From assembly GCA_964016885.1 (NCBI GenBank), contig OZ024751.1, positions 51,088,001-51,152,000 on the forward strand: 64,000 nucleotides of DNA. Reading direction: 5' to 3'. Positions 64-64,000 of the stretch are shown here, piece after piece. Below the pieces are notes generated by a model. That model was not told the DNA's origin. It was given only the letters and a program-made list of their open reading frames with translations, and searched no databases. This DNA comes from Eledone cirrhosa. Lineage: Eukaryota. A program made the position numbers and the translations under genes. The first letter of the stretch is position 1, and each line of letters opens with the position of its first letter.

Positions 64-404
64 TCATCATCATCATCATCATTTTACGTCCACTTTTCCC
101 TGCTTGCAAGGGTGGGACGGGAACTGATTCTGGCTTGATTTCTACAGCTGGATGCCCTTCCTAACACCAACCTCATTTACAGTGAGTGCTGGGTGCTTTT
201 TTGCCGTGGCACCTCCACGACCACTTTGCAGTGGAATTATAAGGACCCCAGTCCCTATCATTTCATTTCTACAGCTGAGTAAACTGGAGCAATGTGAAAT
301 AAAGTGTCTTGCTCAAGGAAACAACACATCACCTGGTCTGAGAATTGAACTCACAACCTTTCGATTGCAAGGCCAATGCTCTAACCACTAAGCCATGTGC
401 CTCC
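64..404 (-). mobile_element. tRNA-derived SINE (family S1), full length, with RTE-type 3' tail and (GAT)n end
   Basis: Minus strand starts GGAGGCACATGGCTTAGTGG (A box) ... GTTCAATTC (B box), followed by a CORE-like CCTTGAGCAAGACACTT segment, and ends CCCACCCTTGCAAGCAGGGAAAAGTGGACGTAAAA(TGA)n. Near-identical copies at 14773-15116 and 45620-46020. Confidence 0.88.
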
Positions 405-489
405 ATATATATATATACTATCCAAGGGAAAATTCAACTGATAAGGTATGTTTTCCTTGGCTATATCAAAATTTATAAAACACACTTTG

Positions 490-551
490 TATTTTATCTG
501 ATGAAAGTGTACCAAAGTTTTTGGTACCCTTGAAATATATATAATAGAATA
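490..551 (+). ncRNA. Minimal type I hammerhead ribozyme (family A)
   Basis: TATTTTAT-CTGATGA-(AAG.GTACCA/TGGTAC.CTT stem II)-GAAA-TATATA-TA-ATAGAATA. Stem I pairs, and the stem III region is palindromic. Confidence 0.85.
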
Positions 552-733
552 AATATGGTTTTATAAATATAGTTTCCATTTATTTATTACCATTGAATAT
601 TTACTCCAGAAGGCTGTTGAGTGCTCTGAATCAGTTATAAACATTTATATTTGTTGAATTTCCAACAAATTAATTATCCCTTCTACTGGAATTGAACTAT
701 CAGCACAGTTGAGGTATGTCATACATCAATTTA

Positions 734-803
734 TGTATTTTATCTGATGAGGACGTACTGAAAAAACAGCACAGTACCTCCGAAATATATATAATAAAAT
801 ATA
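734..803 (+). ncRNA. Minimal type I hammerhead ribozyme (family A, second tandem unit)
   Basis: TATTTTAT-CTGATGA-(GGA.GTACTG/CAGTAC.TCC)-GAAA-TATATA-TA-ATAAAATA; 246 nt downstream of the first motif. Confidence 0.85.
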
Positions 804-849
804 TTTTGATTACGTGAATGTCTACATTTATTAATATTTTGAATTAATA

Positions 850-881
<32 letters not shown>

Positions 882-1039
882 GTATTAAGGATACTATTTA
901 TGGTTATGTATATAATAAAACCTTTTATAGTTATATATATTTTAAACTCTAAATAGTGAAAGACAGTAATTCATTACTATCTTATTACCAGTAAGATAAA
1001 TAGCTCAATGTAATAACATCAGTTGTTTTACAGAGCAGT

Positions 1040-3806: not shown

Positions 3807-4400
3807 CAGAGGTTATATTTAATTTGTTGGGATTCAACAATCTTAAAAATGTTTATAACTGATATAAAGCACTCAACATGTTAGTGAAGTAAATACACAA
3901 TATATTAATTGTTTCTATTTTAGGCACAAGGCCAGAAATTACCCAGTACATTACTGGTACTTTATTTTATCGACCCCATAAGGGTAAAAGGCAAAGTTAA
4001 CCTCGGCGGGATTTGAACTCAGATCATAAAGGGACGTAACTCTATGCTTCAAAGCATGGTGTCCGACTCTCTACCGATACTGCCAATCAACCGCCCTTAT
4101 ATATATACACAATATATTAATAAATGGAAACTATATTTATAAAACCATATTTATTTTATTATACATATTTCAAGGGCAACCAAGGCAAATTATGGTGCGC
4201 TTTCATCAGATAAAATACAGATTTGTTTTATAAATAAATATTGACATATTCTGGGTATGTCAATATATTTATAAAAAAAATCTGTATTTTATCTGATGAA
4301 AGCGCACCATAATTTGCCTTGGTTGCCCTTGAAATATGTATAATAAAATAAATATGGTTTTATAAATATAGTTTCCATTTATTAATATATTGTGTATATA
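3807..4400. mobile_element. Family A fold-back element (arms ~4103-4248 / 4256-4400) with HHRs at 4152-4217 (-) and 4285-4350 (+)
   Basis: Near-perfect hairpin with a 7-nt spacer; TATTTTAT-CTGATGA-stem II-GAAA-TATGTA-TA-ATAAAATA. 3807-3909 resembles the reverse complement of ~570-680. Confidence 0.85.
3910..4097 (-). mobile_element. tRNA-derived SINE (family S2) with 16-bp TSD
   Basis: TGGCAGTATCGG A box, GAGTTCAAATCC B box, GGGGTCGATAAAATAAAGTACCAG domain. TACACAATATATTAAT is duplicated at 3894-3909 and 4106-4121. Confidence 0.85.
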
Positions 4401-4417
4401 TATATATATATATATAT

Positions 4418-6783: not shown

Positions 6784-7158
6784 GACATCCTCATCATTAT
6801 CACAATCACCACCGTCACCATTATTATTCTCATCACCATCATCATCATCATTATCATCATCACCATCATAATCATCATCATCATCATCATTAGCACTGTT
6901 GTCATCATCATCATTGCCATTGTGGTCACCGTCATCGTTATCACCACATCATCATCATCACCACCATCATCACCACCATCATCTCCATCATCATCATCAT
7001 CCTTATCCTCATCACCATGTCAATCTGTTGTGTTTTTCTTGTGTTTTGCTCTGTATTTCTTCTTCTTCTTAGATCATTTATTCTGTAGACATATGTATAT
7101 ATATATATGTGTGTATATATATATATGTGTGTGTGTACGTGTGCATACTTATATAAGC

Positions 7159-7256: not shown

Positions 7257-7287
<31 letters not shown>

Positions 7288-8395
7288 AAGAAATGGATAG
7301 GAAGACTAGGAAGCTATTGACTATCTACAACATGTTCCACAAGAGGAGTGATGTCGATAGACTCTACCTAAGGAGATCTGAGGGTGGAAGAGGTCTTATC
7401 AGCATAGAGGACTGTGTTCAGATGGAGAAAAACAACCTATACAAATACGTGACCTATAGTAAGGAGCCAATGCTCAGAACTGTACTGAAGGAGGGGACAG
7501 TAGGCCAGGGGATGTCCAAGGAGGAAATAACATCAAGGAGGAAGAGCAGCCTTAAGGGAAAATCCCTTCATAGTACCTTCTTTGAGAAAACTGAATTTAG
7601 AGATCCACAGACATGGAACTGGTTGAGAAGAGGAGACCTCAAAAAGGCTACAGAAGGAATGCTAATGGCTGCGCAGGAGCAGGCCCTCAAAACGAAGTGG
7701 TTGAAGCACCATATATACAAGGAGGAGGCTAGCCCACTGTGCAGGATCTGTGGAGAGAGAGAGGAGACTGTGGCTCACATTGTGTCCGAGTGTAAACACC
7801 TAGCCCAGACCCACTATAAGGGCTGGAGACACGATGTGATGGGCAGGGTGATCCACTGGCACCTGTGCAAAGTAAACAATTTACCACATTCTGAGAAATG
7901 GTATGAGCATAGGCCAGAGGCGGTGATGGAGAACAATCAGGTGAAGGTGCTGTGGGATTTTAGGATACAGACGGACAAAAAACTGGAACACAATAGACCT
8001 GACCTGGTGGTTGTGGACAAAGAAAAAAGATCGTGTCTGATTGTGGATGTGGCCTGCCCGTTCGACACGAGAGTGCAAGAGAAGGAGAGGGAGAAAATTA
8101 ACCGATACCAGGACCTAAAGTGGGAGGTGAAAAGGATCTGGAACTGCCATGAAGTCAAAGTGATCCCGATTGTCATAGGCGCACTGGGGACTATCTCCAA
8201 AAGTTTCCAGGGATGGTTAAAGAAAATCGGCCCCTTCACGCTTTTTGGAACGCTTCAAAAGGCATGCTTGCTTGGAACAGCAAGAACCCTCCGATACGTC
8301 CTGAATATCTGAGGCTGCAGGTAGTGGCTTGATATTCAATCCAACGGACTTTCCAGTTAACCAACATCAATGACTGAGATTCAAGGAATAACAAC

Positions 8396-10859: not shown

Positions 10860-10889
<30 letters not shown>

Positions 10890-10893
<4 letters not shown>

Positions 10894-11186
10894 AAGGTTG
10901 TAAGTTCAATTCTCAGACCGGGTGGTGTGTTGTTTCCTTGAGCAAGACACTTTATTTCACATTGCTCCAGTTTACTCAGCTGTAGAAATGAGATGATAGG
11001 GACTGGGGTCCCTATCATTCCACTGCAAAGTGGTCGTGGAGGTGCCACGGCAAAAAAGCACCCAGCACTCACTGTAAATGAGGTTGGTGTTAGGAAGGGC
11101 ATCCAGCTGTAGAAATCAAGCCAAAATCAGTTCCCGTCCCACCCTTGCAAGCAGGGAAAAGTGGACGTAAAAATGAAATGAATGAA

Positions 11187-12534: not shown

Positions 12535-13331
<797 letters not shown>

Positions 13332-14772: not shown

Positions 14773-15116
14773 TCATCATCATCATCATCATCATTTTACG
14801 TCCACTTTTCCCTGCTTGCAAGGGTGGGACAGGAACTGATTCTAGCTTGATTTCTACAGCTGGATGCCCTTCCTAACACCAACCTCATTTACAGTGAGTG
14901 CTAGGTGCTTTTTTTCCGTGGCACCTCCACGACCACTTTGCAGTGGAATGATAGAGACCCCAGTCCCTATCATCTCATTTCTACAGCTGAGTAAACTGGA
15001 GCAATGTGAAATAAAGTGTCTTGCTCAAGGAAACAACACATCTCCCGGTCTGAGAATTGAACTCACAACCTTTCGATTGCAAGGCCAATGCTCTAACCAC
15101 TAAGCCATGTGCCTCC
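14773..15116 (-). mobile_element. SINE family S1, full length
   Basis: Near identical to 64-404. Confidence 0.88.
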
Positions 15117-15281
15117 ATATATACATGTATATCATCATCATCATCATCGACGTCTGAAAAAATTGGTGAGAATACCAGAGCAGAGTGTATATGTGTATGT
15201 AATAAGAGGTGGTGTCACATAGAAGATTTATTGCTCAATCAATCTCCTATGTGACACTTCCACTTTGTCCATATATATATA

Positions 15282-16155: not shown

Positions 16156-16202
<47 letters not shown>

Positions 16203-16203
<1 letters not shown>

Positions 16204-17425
16204 CGAAGTAGTTTCAGATGTTCAAGTCCTTTAATAATAATTGTTTCTACTTTTGGCACAAGGCCAGCAATTACCCAGTGCATTACTGGTACTTTATTTT
16301 ATCGACCCCGTAAGGATGAAAGGCAAAGTTAACCTCGGCGGGATTTGAACTCAGACTGTAAAGGGACGTAACTATGCTAGAAAGCATGGTGTCTGACGCT
16401 CTACCGATTCTGCCAATCTACCACCCTGTCCTTTAATAATAATGCTGTGATATATATTTCAATGACGACACTGGCCATAATGTTCTGTGTGCGAGTGTCG
16501 TGATATCATCAGACAGCTTGTTACATAATAAGGTTATGTTTCCAAGGCAATCCAAGTTGAATCGACATGGGAACGGACGAAGTGTGTGCTTTTGGGTTCT
16601 TCATCCGTTCCCCTGTGAGTACCAATTCACCCCCACCGCTCTGCGCAGACGCACGTCCGAAGGAAGTTGACCATTAGCGCAGATTTCAACGAAATTCGCT
16701 TAGTCAGTTCACCCTCTCAGCCAAACAATGACCCATTTAGGCCTGTACCATAGTTTACTGCTACCCGTCCAGTTTGTGGCAGTCAGCTGAAAGCCAGAGG
16801 GGATGGGAGAGTGTTAGTTTTTACAGCTCACAATACTACCTCTCACCAAGCATGGAAAGTACGACTGACCATCAACGCCCAAGAGAAAATATACTTAATT
16901 CTAGGTATCATGGTTTTACATTGGAAGTTATGAGTGAGAGTTGGAAATAAAAATTAAAATCCTAAATCAAGCAGACCGGTGGGGGTGAATTGGTACTCGC
17001 AGGGGAACGGATGAAGAACCCAAAAGCACACACTTCGTCCGTTCCCATGTCGATTCAACTTGGATTGCCTTGGAAACATAACCTTATTATGTAACAAGCT
17101 GTCTGATGATATCACGACACTCGCACACAGAACATTATGGCCAGTGTCGTCATTGAAATATATATCACACCATTATTATTAAAGGACAGGGTGGTAGATT
17201 GGCAGAATCGGTAGAGCGTCAGACACCATGCTTTCTAGCATAGTTACGTCCCTTTACAGTCTGAGTTCAAATCCCGCCGAGGTTAACTTTGCCTTTCATC
17301 CTTACGGGGTCGATAAAATAAAGTACCAGTAACGTACTGGGTAATTGCTGGCCTTGTGCCTAAAGTAGAAACAATTATTATTAAAGGACTTGAACATCTG
17401 AAACTACTTCGCTTTTACTTATTCC
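16203..17425. mobile_element. Family F fold-back element (arms 16203-16644 / 16971-17412), each arm with an HHR (16444-16517 minus; 17098-17171 plus) and the same SINE S2 insertion
   Basis: ~440-bp inverted repeat. SINE at 16242-16427 with TSD GTCCTTTAATAATAAT, mirrored at ~17188-17373. Confidence 0.88.
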
Positions 17426-17489: not shown

Positions 17490-17975
17490 GTATGCCTCTC
17501 TAGTAACATTGTCTACAAATGTAAGGTTGTAACACCCACGTCCCGTAGGGCCTACATAGGGTTAACCGCCAATAGTTTCAAGCAGCGTCTTTACATGCAT
17601 ACCCATTCTTTTCGTTACCCTCTAAGAAGGAATATGACGTCACTTTCAGCTTATATCTGGAGTCTGAAAGACAACCACACCCAATATAAGTTACACTGGG
17701 AGATCCTAGCTAGGGCTAGATCGTATAACGGAAATAAAAGACTGCGTGACCTCTGCGCCGCTGAGGCCCTGGAAATACTCTACGCTACAGACCACATCTT
17801 AAACAAAAAATCTGAGGCAATTTCGGCTTGTAAACATAAATTGCACAAAACTTTCCTGTATTATAGCCCCACGTTATACCTAACGGATAGCACGATCTAT
17901 ACGTGGATATTTTACGTCTTGATGTGGGAGCTAAGTATATGGTTTGTTTATTCCTTTACTTATTTGCATAGGTAA
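17490..17975 (+). pseudogene. Penelope-like element (Neptune-type) GIY-YIG endonuclease, 5'-truncated
   Basis: Frame of ORF 17595 extended upstream reads CLSSNIVYKCKV..AYIGLTANSFKQR..H..SF..TSLSAYIWSLK..WEIL..DLC..E..LNKKSE..CKHK. Confidence 0.85.
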
Positions 17976-19762: not shown

Positions 19763-19858
19763 TATATATATATATACAAGCTATACAAGCCATGTATCAA
19801 GAAACAGTCAGCAAGGTTAGAATTAACAATAAATATAGTGAAGAATTTAGCGTAAAAG

Positions 19859-21268
19859 TTGGTGTTCATCAAGGCTCTGTCCTTAGCCCCCCTCCTATTT
19901 ATTATTGCCCTTCAGGCTATAACAGAGGAGTTCAAGACCGGTTGCCCATGGGAACTTCTATACGCAGATGATCTAATTCTCATAGCTGAATTGATGGCTG
20001 AACTAGAGAAGAAATTCCAAACATGGAAGCATGGCCTAGAATCAAAAGGCCTTAAAGTTAACTTGTCTAAGACTAAAGTTCTAGTATGTAGAAAGAAAAA
20101 TAGGGCACAGGTACTCTCTGGGAAATGGCCATGCTCAGTGTGTAGAAAAGGAGTTGGCAGAAATTCCATTTTATGTCCCAAATGCAAACTATGGGTACAT
20201 AAAAGATGTAGTGGGATCACAGGTAAGCTAACTAAGAACGTAGATTTTATATGTGGCCGATGCTCAGGTGCAATAAGTAGCAAGTGCCCACAGGATACTA
20301 GCTCCTTCTATTGCCCAGATGGTTCTATAGAAATAGTGGACACCTTCCGTTACCTGGGTGACAAAATCAGCAGTGGTGGAGGGTGCTCTGAAAGTACAGT
20401 AGCCAGAGTCAGAACGGGATGGAAAAAGTTCAGAGAGCTTATACCACTATTGGCCACTAAAGGTTTCTCTCTAAAAATGAAAGGCAGATTGTATGATGCC
20501 TGTATATGAACAGCAATGTTTCATGGCAGTGAAACATGGGCATTGTGTGCAGAGGATCTGCACAGACTGGAGAGGAACGAAGCATCCATGCTCCTTTGGA
20601 TGTGTAATAGTAATATACGCGAACGGCAAAGCATAAATGAACTAAGTGAGAAGACTACATTGGTATGGTCACGTGATGCACATGAAAAATGACAGTTGTA
20701 TAAAAAATTGATGGAAATTACGGAGTAGGTAGACCAAGAAAAACCTGGGACGATTTGATAAATTCCAACCTTACACATTTACACCTCTCTAAGACAATGT
20801 CACTGGACTGAGATCTTTGTTGCTACGCAGTAATACATAAGACCCGCCTTGCCTATGTACAAAGTGAAACCTACAGTCAGTAGGCACCTCTTAACCAAAT
20901 ATATACCCCATCCCACTACCTACTCCAACCCCCACTCCCACCAACACCACCCTTTCTCTGTAAAGTTATGTTGGTACCACAACATCCAGACCAAAATAAA
21001 TGAGGTCGTGTAGGTGTCACGAAAAAAAAACCACACAGTCCATGCTGTAATATGGTTGTGTAGGTAACACAGCAAAAGCGCCCAGTCCACACTGTAAATG
21101 TGGTTGGTGTTAGGAAGAGCATCCAGCCATAGAAAACCTGCCAGATAGTCCTATACGAGTGAGACATGGTCACCCGACCAATCTTGCCTCAAGTAGGTCA
21201 ATTCGCGTCTAAACCCATGCTAGTATGGAAGATAGACGTTAAACGATGATGATGATGATAATGATGAT
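19859..21268 (+). mobile_element. RTE-clade LINE (subfamily a), 5'-truncated and degenerate
   Basis: LAPLLF..YADD..KTKV, PHD-like insert, FRYLG; premature stop at 20507; 3' UTR and (GAT)n tail. Confidence 0.9.
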
Positions 21269-21280
21269 TATAGATACATA

Positions 21281-22070
21281 TCATCATCATCATCATCATC
21301 ACCGTTTTACGTCCGTTCTTCCACGCTAGCATGGGTTAGACGGGTTGTCCTGTTGTGGGCAGTGTCTGGTCGGCTGACCATGCCTTGCTCATACAGGAAC
21401 TGATCTGGCTTGATTTCTACAGCTGGATGCCCTTCCTAACACCAACCTCATTTACAGTGAGTGCTGGGTGCTTTTTCGTGGCGCCTACACGTCCACTTTA
21501 CAGTGTGGGCTGGGTGCTTTTTTGCCGTGGCACCTCCACGACCACCTTGCGGTGGGGGGGGGGGGGCATATTGTTTATATGCTTCAGCATGTACCCATGG
21601 GAGGTCGGGTACCCTGTATTACTGCGTGACGCCAGAAGTCACGGTCGTGTGTCATTGACTTTGAGAGGTGTAGTTGGGTAAGGTCGGCTTTTATCACCTC
21701 ATCCCAAGTCATCTTGGGTCTCCCCACTCCGCGGTTTCCATCAACTTCTAGTGCTCTGCACCTTTTTATGCAGCTGTCATCCTTCATACGCATCACATGT
21801 CCATACCAGCGTAACCGCCTCTCCTGCACGCAGCATTTGATTCCTCTTATGCTCAGTCTCTCTCTCAATTCATTTATGCTTTGTCGTTCACGTATATTAC
21901 TGTTACACATCCATCGGAGCATGCAGGCTTCGTTTCTCTCTAATCTACGTAAGTCTTCCACCTTCAGCGCCCAGGTCTCACTACCATGCAACATCGCTGT
22001 TCGGATACACGCATCATACAGTCTGCCTTTCATTCTGAGGGAGAAGCCTTTTGCAGCTAGCAGTGGTAGT
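21281..22070 (-). mobile_element. RTE-clade LINE 3' fragment (subfamily b)
   Basis: ORF 21584-22033: GSETW..RRLRWYGHVMRM..GRPKMTW; (GAT)n tail. Confidence 0.9.
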
Positions 22071-22564
22071 AGTTATATATATATATATATATAAACACTT
22101 TAAAAGAAAAGCTTTGTAGAATCAGGGGTCAGTTTCATGTTGGTTGGTATTAAAAGAGAATTAATGTCTTTTTATTCATAACTCTATTTTTGCTTCTCAT
22201 TCAAGCCATAATATACACCATATCAATCCTTTCTAAAATAGCTGGGTGTGATTTGAGGAAAATTTGGCTGCTGCTTTGAATATATCAAACAACTATATAG
22301 AAGCTCATAGAGTTATTTGGAGCTATTTTCAATATGTTGGCAGGTGAGTAATGGGATGATCATAGTGTGGTATCATCATGTATGTAATCTTTATGTTCAA
22401 TACTTCTCATATATTGATTTTCAAAGAGGACCGCTCTCTGTGAAAAATTGGTCATATTAATTTGGAGGATTTTTCTTTGTCTTTCATTTTTTCTCAATAT
22501 GCTTGAAATACTTTCCTCTCTTTTCATCATTTCATCATTTTCTGTCTCCTTTCTTCTCTCATTC

Positions 22565-22633
<69 letters not shown>

Positions 22634-23159
22634 GCTAGCGTGGAAAAATGGAGATTAAACAGTGATGATGATGATATATATATATACATACACACACGCA
22701 CATATATATATCATCATCATCATCATCATCATTATTGTTTAACATCTATTTTCTACACAGCATGTATTAGACGGGTTGTCTTGTTTGAGGTGAGTCAGGT
22801 CAGGTGACAGTGTCCTACTCATACAGAACTGTTTCTGGGTTGATTTCTTTGGCTGGATGCCCTTCCTAACGCCAACCACATCTACAGTGTATGATGGGTG
22901 CTTTTTCTCGTAACACCTACACGACCACTTTACACACACATATATATATATAACAAAGAAGGTGTGGTAAGATACCAGGTGGACTATAATGCACCAGAGT
23001 ACTCAATATTTAGGGTAGCAGAGTGGGTAATAGGAAAATAGTCAAGACCCCGACGTCTGATCTCTGGCCATTTCGACAGCAGTTCAGATGTAGCTGTCGA
23101 AACAGCCTGGAGCTCAGCTGTCGGGGTCTTGACTCTTTTCCGATATATATATATATATA

Positions 23160-23402
23160 TCATCATCATCATCATCTTCATTTTACGTCCGCTTTTCCCT
23201 GCTTGCAAGGGTGGGGCGGGTCTTATTCAGCACAGCATCTCTCCACTTGTCACGGTCCTTCGTCATCTCCTCCGTGAGCTTCAGCGATCTGAGGTCCGCT
23301 CTCACCACCTCCGCCCATGTTTTTCGTGGTCTTCCTCTACTGCGCCTTCCTTCTACTGGCATTTCCTACCTCTTCTTTACCCAGCGGTCATCCTCCATGC
23401 CA
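23160..23402 (-). mobile_element. RTE-clade LINE 3' end (subfamily c)
   Basis: Matches 32540-32780 in reverse complement. Confidence 0.85.
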
Positions 23403-23856
23403 GTTATCCATATATATAATTTCTAGCTGGTCAAATAACCACCATAGAGGCTTCCTTATGATCTCATTCATAAAATGTGTTTCTATGGCAGGGGCAGCAA
23501 CTATAAGTGTTAAATCAATATGGTAATAAAACATAGCAGAACCCTTTAAAGAATTCCTTCTTGTCAAGACATCAATAACATCTTGGAGAGCAAATATATT
23601 TATGAATGTGTATATGTGTATTTGCATGTGTTCACATGTGTGTGTATGTGTGCAGGTTTATGTAAGTGTGTGTGTAGGAGTGCGTGTCTATCAATGTACG
23701 TATCTATGTGTGTATGTGCGAGTACACATATATATATATATATAGGTGTATGTATGTATGTATCTGTGTGCATGTGTGTATATACACACACACAGATACG
23801 TACATACACCTACCTATATATATATATATATGTACAGATAAATATATATACATACA

Positions 23857-23925
<69 letters not shown>

Positions 23926-23992
23926 GTATATATGTGCATACATGTATGTATATGTGTGAGAGATTGTATGTGATTAGTATATCATCATCATT

Positions 23993-24039
<47 letters not shown>

Positions 24040-24517
24040 TATCATAACCAACATTCTATGCCTGTCTTCCCTGCAAGTGTCTTTCATGTGTGTGTAAGTA
24101 TGTGCATGTGTGTGTATGAGTATGTGCATGTCTGTGTGTGTATGTATATGTGTGAGTATGTGCATGTGTGATTATGAGTATGTGTGTGTGTGAATGTTTT
24201 GTGTCCTATTTTATATTTATTTTATATTACTCTGCTGCTCTTAGACAAGTCTTTTAATATTCTATGGTGGAATCACAGCCACCGATAAATAGCAAAGTTT
24301 ACACCTTGTCAAATACTCGTAAGTCAGAGTTAGATGTTTTCTTTCCTTTAATGTCTCTCTCTCTCTCACATACACACATATATATGATGATATATATATA
24401 TATATATAAATTTATATATATATATGTATATACATTCATACATATATATATACACATATTTACATATATATATATAGATACACATACACACATATATAGA
24501 TATACACACACACACAA

Positions 24518-25832
24518 ATCATCATCATCATCATCATCATCAACGTTTAACGTCCGTGTTCCACGCTTGCATGGGTTTGGACGGGGGTTTTCCCACTTGA
24601 GGCAAGAGTGATTGTCTTGCTCGCATAGGACTGTCTGGCAAGTTTTCTACAGTTGGATGCCCTTCCTAACACCAACCACATTTACAGTGTGGGTCTGGGA
24701 CGTTTTTACCGTGTTGCCTACACGGCCACATTACAGCGTGGACTGTGTGTTTTTTGTCGTGACACCTACACGATCTCATTTGTTTCGGCCTGGATGGTGT
24801 GGCACCAACATAACTTTACATAGAAGGGGGCGGTGTGGATGGGGTGGGGGTGGTGGGACGGGAGTGTAGTAGGTTTTACTATGTATTTAGGTAAGGCGGG
24901 TCTTCTCTATTACTGAGTACCGCCAAAGATCTCGGTCCAGTGACATTGTCTTGGAGAGGTGTAAGTGTGTGAGGTCGGAGTTTATCAGCTCGTCCCAGGT
25001 TTTTCTAGGTCTGCCTATTCCGTGGCTACCGTCTCTCTTTATTGCCCTGCACTTTGTTATACAGCTATCGACTTTCATGCGCATCACGTGTCCATACCAA
25101 CGTAGCCTTCTCTCGAGTAAACAACATCTGATCCCTCTTATTTCTAATTTTTTCTTTAGTTCGTTTATGCTTTGCCGTTCACGTATATTACTATTACACA
25201 TCCAGCGGAGCATGCAAGCTTCGTTCCTCTCTAGTCTGCGTATATCCTCTGCACACAATGCCCAGGTCTCACTGCCATGCAACATTGCTGTTCGTATGCA
25301 GGCATCATACAACCTGCCTTTCGTTTTTAGGGAGAACCCTTTAGCGGCTAATAGTGGTATAAGCTCTCTGAACTTTTTCCATCCAGTTCTGACTCTAGCT
25401 ACTGTACTTTCAGAGCACCCTCCCCCACTGCTGATTTTGTCACCCAGGTAACGGAAGCTGTCCACTATTTCTATAGAGCCCTCTGCGCAGTTGAAAGAGC
25501 TAGTATTTTGTGGGCACTTGCTGCTACTTATTGCACCAGAGCACCGGCCACATGTGAAATCTATGTTCTTAGTTAGCTTACCTGTGATCCCACTACATCT
25601 TTTATGCACCCATACTTTGCATTTCTGACACAAAATGGAGTTTCTACCTACGCCTTTCCTACACACTGAGCATGGCCACTTCCCGGAAGGGACCGCCGCC
25701 TTATTTTCTTTCCTACAAACTAGAACTTTGGTCTTAGCCAGATTAATTTTAAGGCCTTTTGATTCTAGGCCGTGCTTCCATGTTTGGAATTTCTTCTCTA
25801 GCTCGGCCATTGATTCAGCTATGAGTGTTAGG
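24518..25832 (-). mobile_element. RTE-clade LINE (subfamily a), 5'-truncated, open frame over 24887-25832
   Basis: DLTLIAES..KTKV, PHD-like insert, FRYLG, GSETW, RRLRWYGHV. Confidence 0.92.
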
Positions 25833-25846
25833 TCGATATATATATG

Positions 25847-25912
<66 letters not shown>

Positions 25913-25915
<3 letters not shown>

Positions 25916-26228
25916 CAAGCATAGATGAGTTGAGAGAGAAACTGTGTATAAAAAGGATAAGTTGTAGTGTGCGGGAGAGAAGACTGCGATGGTATGGACA
26001 TGTGATATGCATGGAGGATGACCGCTGGGTAAAGCAGTGCCAAGAAATCCCAGTAGAAGGAAGACACAGTAGAGGAAGACCACTAAAAACATGGGTGGAG
26101 GTGGTGAGACCAGACTTCAGATCACTGAAGCTCACAGAGGAGATGACGAAGGACCATGACAAGTGGAGAGATGCTGTGCTGAATGGGACCTGTCCTACCC
26201 TTGCAAGCAGGTAAAATGATGATGATGA
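25913..26228 (+). mobile_element. RTE-clade LINE 3' end (subfamily c)
   Basis: RERRLRWYGHV..GRPLKTW; (GAT)n tail. Confidence 0.88.
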
Positions 26229-26869
26229 TATATATATCATCGTTTTAATATTTGCTTTTCCTACTAGCAAGGGTTGGATGGGTCTACAAAGTCCAAGTCA
26301 GTACTAAAGCAGTGGCTACTGATCTCTCAGACAAGCTAGGGATCTGTGATCTTGCTCATGTACAGTCTCATGTTCTACCAATTGCACAGGAGAGGTTGCC
26401 ATGTCCTTGACATGACTGAAGAGTCCTCCCAACTCTTTGATTGGCAAGCTTTCTATAGCTGGATGCCCTTCCTATCACCAACCACTTTCCAGCATGTACT
26501 GAGTGCGTTTATCGTGTAGATCACCAGCACTAGGGAGGCTGTCATGTCTTGATGTGACTGAAGGGTCCTCCCAGCCCTTTGTTTGGCAAACTCTTCATGA
26601 TTGGATGCCCTTCCCATCACCAACCACTTCACAAAGGGGCAGTAGCTAGGAGTTGGCATGGGGAGGGGCATGGGGAGAGGCCTGGGGTGTGTGTGGCAAA
26701 GGGATGTAGTGGTGTTGAAGATAGCTGTTAATGAGCAGTGGTGAGAGGAGGGTCAGGGAACATTCTGTGTTGCAGTTTGGGTCTTCTTCAGCACCACATA
26801 ACCCAGCCCTCACAACCATTAGTCATTTTTGTTGTGGGGTTTAAATATACATAATCGTTTAACAGACGG

Positions 26870-27220
26870 TAAGTAATGGCAATGGTAAAGACTCCTTTCA
26901 GTCAGATTGACTGTGGGATTTGCACCTAGAAAGTTCCCCTCCAAGACACAAGTCCGAGCAAGGTTGTTTTGTGGAAGACCAGTAGTCATCCTTACATACC
27001 AGCCTCTTCACACCACCGATGTTGTCCAAGGGAAAGCCAAAGGTTGATACAGCTTGACACCAGTGATGTCACAACTCATTTCTACAGCTGAGTAAACTGG
27101 AGCAACATGAAATAAAGTGTTTAGCTCAAGGACACAATGCATCACCCGGTCCGAGAATCAAACTCCTAACCTTCCGATTGCAAGCTCAATGCTCTAACCA
27201 TCATACCATATGCCTTCACA
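26870..27220 (-). mobile_element. SINE with S1-type tRNA head/CORE-like domain but a different 3' half (family S3)
   Basis: 27075-27218 aligns to the S1 head; 26870-27075 is unrelated to the S1 tail. Confidence 0.7.
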
Positions 27221-27539
27221 CAGATAATGGCAATGATGATGCTGATAGACATCTAAATATAAATACATAGATCAACACACACACTCACACACACACACAC
27301 ATATATATAAACATACATATATTCATACATACATGTATATGCAAGCATGTAAAGACACATAAAGAGTTAAAAAGTGATAGTGATAAGAAATTTACAAAAG
27401 GTTTTGAAGAAAGTTGAAATGGATTCTAAAAATCATAATGGAACAGAAGATAAAACGGAATGATGATAAAAATAACAAGAAAAACAACAAGACCTCCACT
27501 CATGAAACATTTAGTCAACTTCTTGAGGTACATGAATGT

Positions 27540-27997
27540 GTGTATATATTAAGTATAGGAATGTGTATATGTATATATTAAGTATGGGAATGTATATATA
27601 TGTATATATTGAGTATGGGAATGTGTATATATGTATATATTAAGTATGGGAATGTATATATATATGTATATATTAAGTATGGGAATGTATATATATATAT
27701 GTATATATTAAGTATGGGAATGTATATATATATATGTATATATATTAAGTATGGGAATGTATATATATATATGTATATATTAAGTATGGGAATGTATATA
27801 TATATATGTATATATTAAGTATGGGAATGTATATATATATATGTATATATTAAGTATGGGAATGTATATATATATATGTATATATTAAGTATGGGAATGT
27901 ATATATATATATGTATATATTAAGTATGGGAATGTATATATATATATGTATATATTAAGTATGGGAGTGTATATATATATGTATATATTAAGTATTG
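27540..27997. repeat. ~35-bp minisatellite (TAAGTATGGGAATG + TA spacer), ~13 copies
   Basis: Directly visible. Confidence 0.92.
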
Positions 27998-28123
27998 GAA
28001 GATAAAAATGGGAGACAAATAAAAGCAGATACAGATAGAGAAATATATATATATATATATATATATGAGTAGATCGGTAGATAGGTAGATATATAGATGA
28101 ATAGATTGGTAGATAAGTAGGTG

Positions 28124-28198
<75 letters not shown>

Positions 28199-28471
28199 GG
28201 TTGGATGGATGGATGAGTAAGTAGATAGGGAAGCAAATTATATTGATAACTATAAATAATAGTAAAACTTACAAAAATAGTCATTTGGAAATATAAAAAA
28301 AAAGAGGTCAGCTTTTAAAAGTACAGCTTTTCAGATGAATTACTGTGGTGTAGACTTGTGGGCTTGTGTGTGTGGTGTGTGTATGTGTGTGTATGTGTGT
28401 GTGTGGTGTGTGTATATGTGTGTGCGTGTGTGTGTGCATGTAATAATACATACATGCATACATACTCACTC

Positions 28472-28506
<35 letters not shown>

Positions 28507-29462
28507 TGCATGCACACACACACATGCATATATATATAAGTGTATGCATGAGCTATAATATGCAATCATGCATATACACACACACACATTTATATAAGTG
28601 TATGTGTATGCATGAGCTATAATATGCAATCATACATACACACACACGCATATATACAGTATATATAAGTGTCTATGTATGCATGAGCTGTAATATGCAT
28701 TCATGCATATTCACATACTCTCATCCTTTTCCTCAGACACACATGCACATATATAAACATACACACGTGCATATAAATGTAGCATGCAACTAAATTGGAA
28801 CACACATAATGTCAATCAATGATAACAGTTGGTTATAGTATCTCAAGAATTCTAAGTGGAATGAAACTGCAGGAGGGGAAGACCATTGCAATTGAATTGA
28901 AACTGATAATATAGAGTCACATGACTGCTATTAATCAATATATCAATATTATCATGGTTCATTCAACCTTCTGAAACGATCGTAAAACTATGAACTAATT
29001 ATGCCCCCACCCCCTCCCACTGCAAAGTGGACGTGTAGGCACCACGGAAAAAAGCACCCAGTACTCACTGTAAATGAGGTTGGTGTTAGGAAGGGCATCC
29101 AGCTGTAAAAATCAACCCAGAATCAGTTCCCGTATGAGCAAGACAAGGTCAGCCGACCAGCTACTGCCCACAACTTGGCAACCTGTCTAACCCATGCTAG
29201 CGTGGAAGAACGGACGTAAAACGGTGATGATGATATATATATATATATATATATAAATATAAATATATATATATATTGTATTCTCCTTCTATGTAGAGAA
29301 AAAAATGTTGTATCGTGCTGCTATTTTTAGTAACATGAAATTTTAACAAGTCTATAATTCCCTATTTATGTGTGGGTCACTTTAACGGCCTGCCCTCATG
29401 TATTGGGTAGAAAGCGATATATTTACTACTATAAGACTTTTGTGCCCTGTGGTATGGAAATA

Positions 29463-29542
29463 GCTGTCTGAAGAGCTGATTCTTTCCATTGGAAATTCTC
29501 TGAATTTCCAATCTTTTGATAAGCAAAACCGTCGGTCACAGC
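29463..29542 (+). ncRNA. Degenerate hammerhead with long stem II
   Basis: GCTGT-CTGAAGA-GCT..ATTGGAAATTC/GAATTTCCAAT..AGC-(A)AAA-CCGTCGG-TC-ACAGC; G12 is replaced by A. Confidence 0.6.
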
Positions 29543-29634
29543 ACTAGAACAGGTGAATATTTAATTCGAATTTTAATTTATTTAAAAGATTGTTTAATGT
29601 TTACTTGTTCCACTCATTTTTATATATATATATT

Positions 29635-29805
29635 TATTAAAATAAGAGATTAAAGTTTACGCAAAGAATATCTGCTTTCACCCTCAATGGGATCTTCTGA
29701 AACTCAAATAAATATTTGCTCTAGGGTTCTTATATATTTGATATATATTTATCCTTATCGAGCCCTCTATGGATTTTAGTCTTCGCATTTATTATTATTA
29801 CTATA
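29635..29805. mobile_element. Family E fragment: inverted HHR part (29654-29704, minus) joined to a plus-strand 3' tail
   Basis: 29706-29803 matches 18885-18980; 29640-29704 is the reverse complement of 18818-18885. Confidence 0.75.
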
Positions 29806-29969
29806 TATATATATATATATATATAACTAACAACACTTTATCGCTCTACATGGCTGAATACAAGAATGAGGAGCTCATTCTACTGACATGGCTTAAAAGA
29901 GGCTATTTGCATAATTGCAAATGAATATTGTTATTAATATTATTATTAACATTAAAAAAACTCAGATTA

Positions 29970-31177
29970 TATCATCATCATCATGATCATGATCATCATC
30001 ATCATCGTTTAACGTCCATGTTCCACGCTTGCATGGGTTTGGACAGGAGTTTTCCCACTTGAGGCAAGAGTGGTTGTCTTGCTCGCATACGACTGTCTGG
30101 CGGGTTTTCTACGGCTGGACGCCCTTCCTAACACCAACCACATTTACAGTGTGGGGCTGGGAGGTTTTTACCCTGTTGCCTACACGGCCACATTACAGCG
30201 TGGACTGTGTGGCGGGTTTTCTACAGCTGGATGCCCTTCCTAACACCAACCACATTTACAGTGTGGGACTGGGAGGTTTTTACCGTGTTGCCTACACGGC
30301 CACATTACAGCGTGGACTGTGTGTTTTTTTTTGTCGTGACACCTACACGATCTCATTTGTTTCGGCCTGGATGTTGTGGCACCAACATAACTTTACATTG
30401 AAAGGGGGTGTGTGTTTTGTTAGAGATGCCTACTGACTGTAGTAGGTTTTACTTTGTATTCAGGTAAGGCGGGTCTTCTCTATTACTGAGTACCGCCAAA
30501 GATCTCAGTCCAGTGACATTGTCTTGGAGAGGTGTAAGTGTGTGAGGTCGGAATTTATCAGGTCGTCCCAGGTTTTTCTGGGTCTGCCTACTCCGTGGCT
30601 ACCGTCTATCTTTATTGCCCTGCACTTTTTTATACAGCTGTCGTCTTTCATGCGCATCACGTGACCATACCAACGTAGCCTTCTCTCGACTAAACAACAT
30701 CTGATCCCTCTTATTTCTAATTTTTCCCTTAGTTCGTTTATGCTTTGCTGTTCGCGTATATTACTATTACACATCCAGCGGAGCATGCAAGCTTCGTTCC
30801 TCTCTAGTCTGCGTATATCCTCTGCACACAATGCCCAGGTCTCACTGCCATGCAACATTGCTGTTCGTATGCAGGCATCATACAGCCTGCCTTTCATTTT
30901 TAGGGAGAACCCTTTAGCGGCTAATAGTGGTATAAGCTCTCTGAACTTTTTCCATCCAGTTCTGACTCTAGCTACTGTACTTTCAGAGCACCCTCCCCCA
31001 CTGCTGATTTTGTCACCCAGGTAACGGAAGCTGTCCACTATTTCTATAGAACCCTCTGCGCAATTGAAAGAGCTAGTATTTTGTGGGCACTTGCTGCTAC
31101 TTATTGGACCAGAGCACCGGCCACATGTAAAATCTATGTTCTTAGTTAGCTTACCTGTGATCCCACTACATCTTTTA
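29970..31177 (-). mobile_element. RTE-clade LINE (subfamily a), 5'-truncated, two 111-bp UTR units
   Basis: ORF 30505-31038 is nearly identical to the 24887 copy. Confidence 0.92.
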
Positions 31178-31186
31178 TATATATAG

Positions 31187-31233
31187 AGTAATAATATTTA
31201 CGAAAACTAAAATCCGAAGAGTGCTCAATAAGG

Positions 31234-31303
<70 letters not shown>

Positions 31304-31410
31304 ACATATATAAACCCATAGAGCAAATATTTATTATAAGTACAGATTAAAGTTTAAGCAAAGAATTGCTGCTTTCACCCTTTACGGGATCTCCTGAAAC
31401 TGAGAAAAAT
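31187..31410 (-). mobile_element. Family E element (HHR 31351-31401, core CAGGAGA) with internal (TA)n expansion
   Basis: Reverse complement of ~18810-18980. Confidence 0.7.
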
Positions 31411-31486
31411 CTATTATATATATATCTATATAGTCTGGTCCAGCTGATTTGCCTGTCTTCATATCCTTAAAATTATATATATATGT

Positions 31487-32785
31487 ATAAGCCACTATAC
31501 TTAGCCTTTGTTGACCTAGAGAAGGCCTTTGATAGGGTACCCCGATCTGTCATCTGGTGGTCCCTAAGGAAGCTGGGTGTTGAGGAATGGCTTGTAAGGA
31601 CAGTGCAAACTTTGTACAGAGGTACTCTCAGTAAAGTCAGGGTAGGAATGGAGTTTAGTGAGGAATTCCAGATACAAGTAGGAGTACATCAGGGTTCGGT
31701 CCTCAGCCCGCTCTTGTTCATTATAGTCCTCCAAGCCATAACAGAGGAGTTTAAGACTGGCTGTCCATGGGAACTTCTCTATGCTGACGATCTGGCTCTT
31801 ATGGCAGAATCAGTAGAGGAGCTAGAGAATAAATTCCGGCTATGGAAACAGCAGTTGGAAGCAAGAGGACTGAGAGTAAATCTAGCTAAGACAAAAGTGT
31901 TGATGAGTAGAAAAGAGGACAAAACCCTGATTCCGTCAGGGAAATGGCCATGTTCGATATGCAGAAAAGGAACTGGCATAAATTCTATAAAATGCACACA
32001 ATGTAGGTCCTGGGTACACAAGAGATGTAGCGGGATAGCAGGCAAACTAACAGGTAGGGAAAAATATGTATGCAGTAGATGTACAGGGAAATTAGACAGT
32101 AGAAATCGCACTGATAGACACATTTTTCAAATGCGAAAAGGCGCTATAGAAGTGGTGGATAGCTTCCGGTACCTAGGAGATCAGATTAGCATGGGAGGAG
32201 GGTGTTCCGAGGCCATAGTATCTAGAATAAGGACGGGTTGGAAGAAGTTTAGGGAGCTGCTTCCTCTGTTGACGAAGAAGGGTTTCTCCCTGCGTACGAA
32301 AGGCCGGTTGTATGATGCCTGTGTGAGGAGCGCGATGCTGCATGGTAGTGAGACATGGGCAGCAACCGCAGAAGATATGCGACGGCTGGAGAGAAATGAG
32401 GCAAGCATGCTCCGTTGGATGTGCAGTGTAAATGTGCGTGAACGACCCAGCATAAATGTGTTGAGAGAGAAACTGTGTCTGAGAGGGATAGAATGTAGTG
32501 TACGGGAGAGGAGACAGGTGGTATGGACATGTGATGCGCATGGAGGATGTCCGATGGGTGAAGAAGTGCCAGGAAATGCCAGTTGAAGGAAGACGTGGTA
32601 GAGGTAGACCACGAAAAACATGGGCGGAGGTGGTGAGAACAGATCTCAGATCATTGAAGCTCACGGTGGAGATGACGAGGGACCGTGACGAGTGGAGAGA
32701 TGCTGTGCTGAATAAGACCCGTCCCACCCTTGCAAGCAGGGAAAAGCGGACGTAAAATGATGATGATGATGATGATGATGATGAT
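31487..32785 (+). mobile_element. RTE-clade LINE (subfamily c), RT core to 3' end, frameshift near 32510
   Basis: LAFVDLEKAFDRV, QGSVLSPLLF, YADD, PHD-like insert, FRYLG; (GAT)n tail. Confidence 0.93.
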
Positions 32786-32797
32786 GTATATATATAT

Positions 32798-33485
32798 ATC
32801 ATCATCATCATCATTTTACGACCGCTTGTCCCTGCTTGCAAGGGTGGCACAGTTTCTATTCAGCACCGCATCTCTCCACTTGTCATGGTCCTTTGTCATC
32901 TCCTCCGTGAGCTTCAGTAATCTGAGGTCTGCTCTCACCACCTCCGCCCATGTTTTTCGTGGTCTACCTCTACTGTATCTTCCTTCTACTGGCATTTCTT
33001 GGCACTTCTTTACCCAGAGGTCATCCTCCATCTGCATCACATGTCCATACCATCACAGTCTTCTCTCCCGCACACTACTTATCCCTTTTAAACACAGTTT
33101 CTCTCTCAGCTCATCCATGCTCGGTCGTTCACGTATATTGATATTGCACATCCAATGGAGGATGCTTGCTTGATTTCTCTCCAGCCGTCGCATATCCTCT
33201 GTAGTTGCTGCCCATGTCTCACTACCATGCAGCATCTCACACAGGCATCATATAACCGGCCTTTCGTATGCAGTGCAAAACACTTCTTTAAGCAGCTCCC
33301 TAAACTTTTTCCAACCTATCCTTATTCTAGATACTGTGGCCTCGGAACACCCCCCCCCTCCCATGCTAATCTGATCACCTAGGTACTGGAAGGTATCAAC
33401 CACTTCTATAGAACCTACCTGCATTTGAAAAATGTGTCTATTAATGAACTCTTCTACTGTCAAATTTCCCTGTACATCTACTGCA
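32798..33485 (-). mobile_element. Degenerate RTE-c copy, tail-to-tail with the preceding one
   Basis: FQYLGDQISMGGG..GSETW..GRPRKTW in broken frames. Confidence 0.88.
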
Positions 33486-33938: not shown

Positions 33939-34344
33939 AAAGTTATATTTAAATTGTTGGGTTACAACTAGTAAATATTTATAACTGATATAAAAGCACT
34001 CGACAAGTATTTGGAGTATATTTACGATATTAAATAAATGGAAACTATATTTATAAAACCATATTTATTTCATTATATATATTTCAGGGATATCATATTA
34101 ACAATATGCTATGCCTTCCTCAGACAAAATACAATATAAACAGTTTTATAGATAAATAGATTTCAATTCAACTTTTCAAATACAAGTCGATGTTGTACGG
34201 TATGTCAAATCTATTTATCTATAAAACTGTTTATATTGTATTTTGTCTGAGGAAGGCATAGCATATTGTTAATATGATATCCCTGAAATATATATAATGA
34301 AATAAATATGGTTTTATAAATATAGTTTCCATTTATTTAATATC

Positions 34345-34346
<2 letters not shown>
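33937..34346. mobile_element. Family A fold-back (arms 34024-34163 / 34207-34346), HHRs 34066-34131 (-) and 34239-34304 (+)
   Basis: TATTTTGT-CTGAGGA-stem II-GAAA-TATATA-TA-ATGAAATA within a ~140-bp inverted repeat. Confidence 0.85.

Positions 34347-34377
<31 letters not shown>

Positions 34378-58550: not shown

Positions 58551-58553
<3 letters not shown>
55759..58553 (-). mobile_element. R4/Dong-type non-LTR retrotransposon (RT + RLE), 5'-truncated, one frameshift at ~57245
   Basis: WKSPGKD, NYRPITCL, DYKKAFDS, GIFQGDSLSPLLF, FYMDD, YKYLG, GGRGL, CRAC..ETIDHIISMC, RHD, RPDII..D, EKLSKY; (TTA)n on both flanks. Confidence 0.93.
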
Positions 58554-60645: not shown

Positions 60646-60679
60646 GTGGTCTTTCCCATCTTATCCACTCTATTTCAAC

Positions 60680-63600: not shown

Positions 63601-64000
63601 ATCTCTGGCCTGGCAGTACTACCGAGGAGCCTTGCCAGTTCGGGATAAACTCTACAGGCATGGAGGTGCCGTCAGCCGGGCATGTCCGAGATGCGCGCAG
63701 GGCGATGAAACCGTCCTGCACGCACTCGTCCAGTGTCCGAAAATTGCTGACTTGTGGGTTTATGTCGAACACCTGCTGTCGCGTGTAGGATGGATCCGGC
63801 TATCATCTGAGTCCATCGTGAGGATTGCCCCGCCCTCTTCCCTTAGCCGGGAAGGGCAGGCAGTTTTTATCTGTCTGGTGGCCATGGCGAAAGAGATAGT
63901 ATGGTGGATACGTTTGAAAGGGCTGAAGACGAGCACTTACCTCTTCGGTGATGCTCTGATTAACTTTTTCAAATTTCATTTGAAAAGGAAAATCAGGGTA
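60680..64000 (+). pseudogene. ORF2 (APE endonuclease + RT), in-frame stops at 62327, 63068 and 63374
   Basis: SINARGL, SET, GDWN, YLDR, TDH; KSPGLDG, FRPITLLN, KAFDRV, RQGCPLS, YADD; CPRC..ETVLHALVQC. Confidence 0.92.

What the first reader, a model, noticed from the sequence alone, without database searches (positions are those of the whole stretch)
490..803. Tandem family A units 246 nt apart, with covarying stem II
Two HHRs are in direct orientation, so double cleavage would release a ~250-nt monomer, the size class of metazoan retrozyme circRNAs. Stem II differs among copies but pairing is kept (AAG.GTACCA/TGGTAC.CTT; GGA.GTACTG/CAGTAC.TCC; AAG.GCACCA/TGGTTGC.CTT; AGG..ATA.CATAT/ATATG.TAT..CCT), implying selection on structure. 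The palindromic TATATA stem III suggests activity as a dimer.
Basis: partly seen in the sequence, partly recalled or inferred. Interest (0 to 1): 0.75.

Follow-up and report, generated by a model that had tools for sequence, protein, structure and literature searches.

The report
Two Penelope retroelement ends stacked
The two self-cutting-RNA motifs are real, but they are the tail ends of two different, very common jumping-gene families joined only once in this genome, likely by one landing on the other, not a repeating unit built to make a small circular RNA.

Summary
Observation confirmed: two type-I hammerheads (CUGAUGA at 498 and 744; predicted cuts after 543 and 793; 250 nt between cuts), far above chance, with stem II covarying across subfamilies. 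The retrozyme reading is not supported. The 250-nt piece is not a repeat unit. HHR1 lies in family A1 (417-687) and HHR2 in family A2 (688-848). These are the pseudo-LTR 3' ends of two sister Hydra-clade Penelope-like elements: RT with DKT, CxCX5C linker, GIY-YIG domain, (TA)n targets. About 30,000 A1/A3- and A2-type hammerhead starts exist in the 3.0-Gb genome, yet the A1|A2 junction occurs once. Same-strand pairs 150-450 nt apart turned up in 3 of 80 sampled loci, with varying spacing and partners, and there were no arrays. Most likely a 5'-clipped A2 inserted at the A1/(TA)n border through a 3-base microhomology. Covariation reflects selection in active element lineages, not at this locus. 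The palindromic stem III does allow a hybrid dimer fold, but it is favoured only in a trimmed fragment. No RNA data were available. The scan noted this PLE-hammerhead system before, elsewhere in this genome.

The parts
76..405 (.). tRNA-related short repeat (SINE-like), multi-copy; upstream neighbour
   Evidence: Rfam tRNA match 338-395 on the minus strand, 28.1 bits, below gathering score 29; near-full copies at 14788-15117 and 10889-11172
405..416 (.). (TA)n tract at the 5' side of the stack (target remnant, inferred)
   Evidence: sequence
417..687 (+). Family A1: solo pseudo-LTR of a Hydra-clade Penelope-like element, from the family's usual 5' start to its long 3' end
   Evidence: 29 of 29 other loci end at the base equivalent to 687; 5' ends cluster at -73 to -83 from the core; linked to an RT-EN ORF in L132, L121, L140
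446..451 (+). AG/GTATGT splice-donor-like site, also present in A2 (714-719) and in A4; inferred donor of a 5' intron
   Evidence: sequence comparison; Penelope and Chlamys have a 5'-UTR intron in the pLTR (PMC8557442 passage); function not tested
490..551 (+). HHR1, type I: stem I 490-497/544-551, core CUGAUGA 498-504, stem II 505-531 (A10.1-U11.1; U.C at the family's C.C mismatch), GAAA 532-535, palindromic stem III 535-542, predicted cut after 543
544..793 (+). 250-nt stretch between the predicted cuts: 3' half of A1 plus 5' half of A2; a chimera, not a repeat unit
   Evidence: no similarity to neighbours; circular fold -41.2 vs shuffles -35.4+/-3.8, 9 of 100 shuffles as good; linear z -1.43
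604..687 (+). A1 'tail' between the short and long 3' ends of the family
   Evidence: 3' ends cluster at +97 to +108 and +191 to +194; inverted partners stop at query 134 = window 603
685..687 (+). ACT microhomology at the A1|A2 junction; no (TA)n between the two elements
   Evidence: A1 ends in ACT; 23 of 29 other A2 loci read CAAGACT before the base equivalent to 688; junction unique in the genome
688..848 (+). Family A2: 5'-clipped pseudo-LTR of a sister Hydra-clade element, ending at the family's short 3' end
   Evidence: linked to EN/RT ORF fragments about 1.2 kb upstream in 9 of 30 loci
736..801 (+). HHR2, type I: stem I 736-743/794-801, core 744-750, stem II 751-781 (G10.1-C11.1, C.C mismatch), GAAA 782-785, palindromic stem III 785-792, predicted cut after 793
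847..881 (.). (AT)17.5 tract at the 3' end of A2 (priming target, inferred)
   Evidence: TRF

Best explanation
The pair is a one-off stack of two pseudo-LTR ends from two sister Hydra-clade Penelope-like retroelement families, likely made by two successive insertions into the same (TA)n site. Shown: HHR1 sits in family A1 (417-687) and HHR2 in family A2 (688-848); each family is the 3' end of an RT + GIY-YIG ORF with Hydra motifs; both end at TA tracts; the junction occurs once in the genome. Inferred: A1 was reverse-transcribed from its outer start site, uncut through its hammerhead, to the family's 5' start and landed in the TA tail beside a SINE-like repeat. Later an A2 enzyme cut at the A1/(TA)n border, primed at A2's inner start site, stopped 9-12 nt short of A2's 5' start and joined A1's end by the 3-base ACT match. 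The hammerheads' conserved fold is inherited from the active elements, where they likely process tandem transcripts as dimers or with protein help. At this locus the pair is most likely inert; any 250-nt product would be accidental.
For: The A1 query matches end at window 687 in 29 of 29 other loci. Of 84 located A1 long ends (89 loci examined), 78 meet a strict TA test, the other 6 also start with TA, and 0 continue into A2. None of 29 other A2 loci has the A1 end upstream. The junction 22-mer gives 1 exact match plus one unrelated 2-mismatch hit, control 1. The gapped junction pattern gives 1, the window itself. Family sizes are 16,925 and 13,558 hammerhead starts at <=1 mismatch, controls 0. 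Parent ORFs: L132 has a 637-aa frame with SDKT, YRDD, CNCRIKSNC, YVG and CKLC, A1 1.1 kb downstream and an inverted partial A1 at the 5' end. CxH motifs are in L133, L134, L142 and L083, and RRLRWR is in L144. A1 and A2 parent proteins are 50-60% identical. These match the Hydra definition (PMC8557442 section 11). In 80 sampled loci, 3 have a same-strand pair 150-450 nt apart (287, 353, 205 nt; two mixed-family), each with a TA tract between; 14 have inverted same-family pairs; none has an array. At least 41 of 60 A1 copies span the cut site and none starts cleanly at it, in line with uncut RNA being the main template for a Poseidon PLE in vitro (PMC11167929, parts 1-2 of 4 read). Private differences are 7/218 in A1 against 1/161 in A2, the direction expected if A1 is older.
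Against: Unlike the three sampled direct pairs, this junction has no TA tract between the elements, which a template jump would also explain. The age difference is not significant (Fisher p=0.15) and was measured against top hits chosen for similarity. Pfam did not recognise the RT or EN fragments; the clade call rests on motifs compared with the paper's text, without a tree. A1 here starts at the family's usual 5' boundary, so a read-through transcript over both motifs is possible, and the trimmed 488-803 fragment folds into a hybrid hammerhead. The pair sample covers one chromosome and one of its 80 loci was hand-picked.
Confidence: 0.8

Rival explanations
1. Single-event chimera: one reverse transcriptase copied A2 RNA almost to its 5' start, jumped onto an A1 RNA by the 3-base ACT match, and inserted the joined cDNA into one TA tract. 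Still not a retrozyme.
For: Seamless junction with microhomology and no TA; TA tracts on both outer sides.
Against: The A1 long end is likely an internal priming site, not an RNA end (by analogy with PMC11167929), so a jump landing exactly there needs a coincidence. A1 carries more private changes than A2 (7/218 vs 1/161; not significant). No other such join was found with the exact patterns tried.
Confidence: 0.1
2. Accidental but working retrozyme seed: whatever its origin, the stack is transcribed from A1's internal promoter, the two palindromic stems III pair into a double hammerhead, both sites cut, and a 250-nt chimeric RNA is released and circularised.
For: In 488-803 the minimum-energy fold is the hybrid hammerhead (core 1, 8-bp cross stem III, cut at 793; cross stem I probability 0.89; constrained ensemble share 0.11). 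Both cores are intact and the size is within the 150-450 bp of retrozymes (PMC7229834 passages).
Against: The fold that cuts at 543 has a share of 5e-5 even in the trimmed fragment, and with natural flanks (420-848) every active fold is <=1.3e-4. The unit was never amplified. The circle folds no better than shuffles in a clear way. In a preprint only 1 of 9 true retrozyme dimers cleaved in vitro (10.64898/2026.07.22.740005, part 3).
Confidence: 0.07
3. One reading: a member of a family-A retrozyme that spreads as a ~250-nt circular RNA.
For: Direct orientation, spacing in the retrozyme range, low GC (0.29), covarying stem II.
Against: Not a repeat. Two different families. Unique junction. Zero exact A1 tail-to-head joins with a gap of 0-10 nt (syntax validated). 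Protein-coding parents.
Confidence: 0.03

Closest known systems
Hydra-clade Penelope-like elements (Craig et al. 2021, PMC8557442; section 11 and passages read)
   Same: C-terminal GIY-YIG; DKT; CxCX5C linker; CxxC and CxH around the conserved E and N; RW[K/R]-type N-terminal motif; canonical hammerhead; (TA)n insertion; inverted 5'-truncated copies; one-sided tail.
   Different: The tail here is about 85-95 nt rather than the 30-40 bp given for PLEs. The 3' UTR is about 1.1-1.2 kb, so full elements likely exceed the '<3 kb' typical of Hydra. Copy number is in the tens of thousands. No tree was built.
Hammerheads in PLE pseudo-LTRs (Cervera and de la Pena 2014, PMC4209133; Results and Discussion read)
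   Same: Type I, short palindromic stem III, long stem II, mostly single motifs from truncated PLEs, dual motifs 100-700 bp apart on opposite strands, consensus families full of compensatory changes.
   Different: Here stem I is 8 bp, stem II has an invariant C.C mismatch after 3 bp, and A1, A3 and A4 use A10.1-U11.1 instead of G-C. The paper does not describe mixed-family same-strand stacks in the sections read.
Metazoan non-LTR retrozymes (PMC7229834, passages read; preprint 10.64898/2026.07.22.740005, parts 1 and 3 of 5 read)
   Same: Two type-I hammerheads in direct orientation 150-450 nt apart, low GC, PLE ancestry.
   Different: Retrozymes are tandem repeats of one unit; here there is one copy of a chimeric spacer between two 64%-alike elements, with no amplification and no RNA evidence.
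PAc, Poseidon PLE studied in vitro (Frangieh et al. 2024, PMC11167929; parts 1-2 of 4 read)
   Same: Two fixed 3' ends that define a tail, AT-rich targets, and insertions that run through an uncut hammerhead.
   Different: Different clade; in PAc the hammerhead overlaps the ORF start. The ORF-pLTR relation at the 5' side was not established here.

Membership tests
Type I hammerhead ribozyme | CUGANGA and GAAA cores, NUH site, three stems with stem I open | tested here: met
Type I hammerhead ribozyme | Match to an Rfam hammerhead model | tested here: not met
   no hit at gathering score or at E<=10; the models do not appear to cover this variant
Type I hammerhead ribozyme | Self-cleavage | not testable with these tools
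   needs an in vitro assay; monomer active folds are predicted at <=1e-3
Hydra-clade PLE (parent elements) | Single ORF with RT and C-terminal GIY-YIG, on the same strand upstream of the hammerhead | tested here: met
   L132, L121, L140 for A1; L083, L084, L068 and others for A2; identified by motifs, Pfam gave no hit
Hydra-clade PLE (parent elements) | DKG changed to DKT; RWK motif | tested here: met
   SDKT in L132, L144, L148; RRLRWR in L144, a K-to-R variant; seen for the A1 lineage only
Hydra-clade PLE (parent elements) | CxCX5C linker; CxxC and CxH flanking E and N | tested here: met
   CNCRIKSNC / CNCRRKSEC; CKLC..CRH and CNLC..CLH
Hydra-clade PLE (parent elements) | Insertion into (TA)n; inverted truncated copies; tail | tested here: met
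Hydra-clade PLE (parent elements) | Placement in the Hydra clade by RT phylogeny | not tested
   no reference Hydra sequences were fetched; the paper's supplements, not read, hold them
Metazoan non-LTR retrozyme | Tandem repeat with at least two consecutive homologous units, each with a hammerhead | tested here: not met
Metazoan non-LTR retrozyme | Unit dispersed or amplified as a family | tested here: not met
   junction occurs once in 3.0 Gb
Metazoan non-LTR retrozyme | Unit length 150-450 bp, low GC, non-coding | tested here: met
   250 nt, GC 0.29
Metazoan non-LTR retrozyme | Expressed as linear and circular monomer RNA | not testable with these tools
   no RNA holder listed

The most novel reading that the evidence does not exclude
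Because sister Penelope families share the TATATA stem III and stem I, stacking of their ends at TA tracts keeps creating mixed-family hammerhead pairs (about 4% of sampled loci, so roughly a thousand genome-wide by extrapolation) that can fold into hybrid double hammerheads. This locus would be a retrozyme caught at birth, releasing a 250-nt chimeric circle before any amplification.
Probability: 0.07. Interest if true: 0.55.

Novelty: new member of a known kind. Interest (0 to 1): 0.15.

Why it matters
As it stands it is ordinary: hammerheads in PLE ends, their palindromic stem III and their compensatory variation are published. Two small points have use. Two close hammerheads in direct orientation are not enough to call a retrozyme in a genome with tens of thousands of TA-targeting PLE ends. 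And these Hydra-clade families are very abundant, with fixed 5' and two fixed 3' ends, which makes them good material for mapping PLE priming. If the hybrid fold did cut in vivo, it would give a concrete route by which retrozymes arise from PLE ends, which the 2026 preprint proposes from distribution and phylogeny only.

Tried and rejected
Rfam: no hammerhead match. Pfam on four ORF fragments: nothing above cut-off. Sequencing runs: no RNA holder listed; laying four runs of unrecorded kind gave only repeat-family pile-ups, no piece spanning the stretch and no usable ends; neither bears on expression. A genome-wide count of same-strand hammerhead pairs by one long gapped pattern was not obtained, so the pair frequency rests on an 80-locus sample. 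Rejected: Neptune or Nematis as the parent clade (the linker is CxCX5C, not CX2-5CxxC). Rejected: the Naiad- or Neptune-like RT next to L053/L090 as the A2 parent (opposite strand, not shared by other copies). Tested and not found: a pile-up of 5' ends at the hammerhead cut site; none of 60 starts cleanly there, and about five begin within or blend into the TATATA stem next to TA tracts or an inverted arm and cannot be called. One regex count returned nothing through a pattern error and was redone; one search crashed before the minus strand and was redone. Paper searches: hammerhead+Penelope+retrozyme, hammerhead+octopus on a guess from composition (only one relevant paper), PLE/pLTR terms, Penelope+template switch+pLTR (one review, not read). 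No claim of absence from print is made. Supplements of PMC8557442 (Hydra alignments and hammerhead list) were not read and may already list these families.

Full report
Observation. A descriptor scan finds type-I hammerheads with CTGATGA at 498 and 744 on the plus strand, each with an 8-bp stem I, a 3+6-bp stem II, GAAA, the palindrome ATATATAT and H17 at 543 and 793. Four more of the same kind lie at 4209-, 4293+, 34123- and 34247+, as two inverted pairs. The scan gives 6 in the window against 0.08 expected in 100 Markov-1 simulations. Rfam does not detect them.

Is it a tandem repeat? No. TRF reports nothing at 490-803. The 250-nt stretch between the cuts aligns to the 246 nt before it at 143/250 (shuffled 134.8) and to the 246 nt after it at 134/250 (shuffled 139.8).

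Two families. A search of the own genome (3.0 Gb) with 470-850 returned, among 40 scored candidates, only one match covering the whole query, the window itself; the other top matches stop at or within 5 nt of query base 218, window 687. In 29 of 29 other loci fetched, that end is followed by TA-rich sequence. Over 89 loci, the end was located in 84: 78 pass a strict TA test, the other 6 also begin with TA, and none continues into the HHR2 element. The stretch 688-848 is a separate family with 97-99% identical copies. None of 29 other loci has the A1 end upstream, and 23 read the family's own CAAGACT there. The junction 22-mer occurs once exactly; one 2-mismatch hit is unrelated, and the reversed control also gave 1. 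With a 0-10-nt gap allowed it still occurs once. Exact patterns for an A1 end followed by an A1 or A2 start gave 0; exact patterns miss diverged copies. The families are large: 16,925 A1/A3-type and 13,558 A2-type hammerhead starts at one mismatch, counting both arms of inverted pairs.

What the families are. Walking upstream, 22 of 30 loci found with A2's far 3' UTR carry the A2 hammerhead downstream, and 9 of 30 also show an endonuclease ORF fragment on the same strand about 1.2 kb before it. For A1 the counts are 19 of 30 and 5 of 30. L132 shows the whole plan: a 637-aa frame with SDKT, YRDD, CNCRIKSNC, YVG and CKLC, the A1 element 1.1 kb after it, and an inverted partial A1 at its 5' end. 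CxH closes the domain in L133, L134, L142 and L083, and an RRLRWR motif precedes DKT in L144. These are the features given for the Hydra clade of Penelope-like elements, including (TA)n targeting and canonical hammerheads (PMC8557442 section 11). The A1 and A2 parent proteins are 50-60% identical and their pseudo-LTRs 175/272. Pfam found nothing and no tree was built, so the clade call is by motif.

Element ends. 3' ends fall at two places, about +97 to +108 and +191 to +194 from the core for A1, +106 and about +204 for A2 (28 of 80 loci passed that call's filter). This matches the two reverse-transcription start sites that make the PLE tail in vitro (PMC11167929), though the tail here is longer. 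5' ends cluster near a TCACT site shared by A1, A2 and A4, followed by an AG/GTATGT site; reading these as start site and splice donor is inference. At least 41 of 60 A1 copies chosen by a tail motif span the cut site and none begins cleanly at it, so most templates were uncut, as reported for PAc.

How common are such pairs? In 80 loci from chromosome C1 (79 taken in positional order, one hand-picked; the detector missed the focal motif in 2), 55 had a single motif, 14 had an inverted same-family partner within 450 nt, and 3 had a same-strand partner at 150-450 nt (A4/A1 287 and 353, A2/A2 205); none had an array. All three have a TA tract between the elements. Direct pairs at retrozyme-like distance are thus a by-product of shared TA targeting; roughly a thousand would be expected genome-wide (extrapolation).

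How this one formed. A1 runs from its usual 5' start (417) to its long end (687). A2 lacks its first 9 nt, shares ACT with A1's end, and stops at its short end before (AT)17.5. Most likely A2 inserted second at the A1/(TA)n border and joined by microhomology. A1 has 7 private differences in 218 nt and A2 has 1 in 161 (p=0.15). The lack of TA at the junction leaves a single-event template jump open (about 10%).

Covariation and dimer. Across subfamily majorities stem II changes pairwise (A-U/G-C at pairs 1, 2, 3, 5 and 10; U-A/C-G at 6; C-G/U-A at 9) around an invariant C.C mismatch. On 10 representatives 7 of 9 pairs change on both sides and slid controls fall to 38-56% paired; the count of such pairs alone was reached by 42 of 500 shuffles. 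This is selection among active PLE lineages, as described for PLE hammerheads (PMC4209133). It does not bear on this locus; HHR1 itself has mutated the conserved C. Single motifs are predicted to reach the active fold rarely (<=1e-3). In the trimmed 488-803 fragment the lowest-energy fold is a hybrid: core 1 with an 8-bp stem III between the two palindromes, cutting at 793 (share 0.11). The fold cutting at 543 is at 5e-5 and the full double hammerhead at 2e-5, and with natural flanks all active folds are <=1.3e-4. These are equilibrium predictions without tertiary contacts or protein. So the dimer idea is structurally possible, but release of a 250-nt unit is not predicted. No RNA run was available.

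Earlier notes of this scan on other parts of the genome reach the same PLE-hammerhead reading, and some report true retrozyme arrays of other families; I did not check those.

Verdict. Real hammerheads, real covariation, wrong unit. New members of a known kind (Hydra-clade PLE ends), here in a chance stack. Interest 0.15.

Noticed in passing
window 4098-4404 and 34017-34353: Inverted pairs of hammerhead-bearing PLE ends (subfamilies A3 and A4), arms 99% complementary; the 34-kb one shows the one-sided tail.
   Followed up: partly
window 3399+, 10537+, 4538-, 16512-, and a degenerate A4 at 8899-8976-: Further hammerheads of other families; 16512 lies in a 443-nt inverted repeat at 16202-17413 next to an endonuclease fragment.
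   Followed up: no
window 17490-17975 +: GIY-YIG fragment 38% identical to the A1 parent endonuclease: another Hydra-like PLE family.
   Followed up: partly
stem II position 4 in all eight family-A clusters: C.C mismatch is the majority state in every subfamily while neighbouring pairs covary; a candidate tertiary contact. A1, A3 and A4 use A10.1-U11.1.
   Followed up: partly
A1 (L121 ~6880-6915), A2 (L126 ~7953-8000), A4 (L144 ~68-115); window 417 and 446: Shared TCACT at the usual 5' boundary and AG/GTATGT 30-45 nt later: likely initiator and 5' splice donor; many solo copies begin at the A of TCACT.
   Followed up: partly
window 882-1020: Short repeat that also abuts TA tracts, with 80-93% copies in L194, L218, L045, L142; identity unknown.
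   Followed up: partly
window 76-405: tRNA-related SINE-like repeat with many copies in the window.
   Followed up: partly
L230 (G000:C1:63697747-63697898): Three A2 hammerhead 5' halves at 65-nt spacing: local duplication of a partial motif; only the last is complete.
   Followed up: partly
window 36425-40797; 12615-13065; 30091-30323: 47-bp satellite with 93 copies at 96% match; 111/112-bp tandem repeats.
   Followed up: no
window 7284-8312, 55904-58553, 60641-64000, 19856-33173; L128 2958-6059: Long ORFs that look like non-LTR retrotransposon RT/endonuclease pieces by eye; labels recalled, not tested.
   Followed up: no
loci L002-L230: At least ten other hammerhead families appear by chance in 0.77 Mb of fetched DNA, showing very high PLE-end density in this genome.
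   Followed up: no
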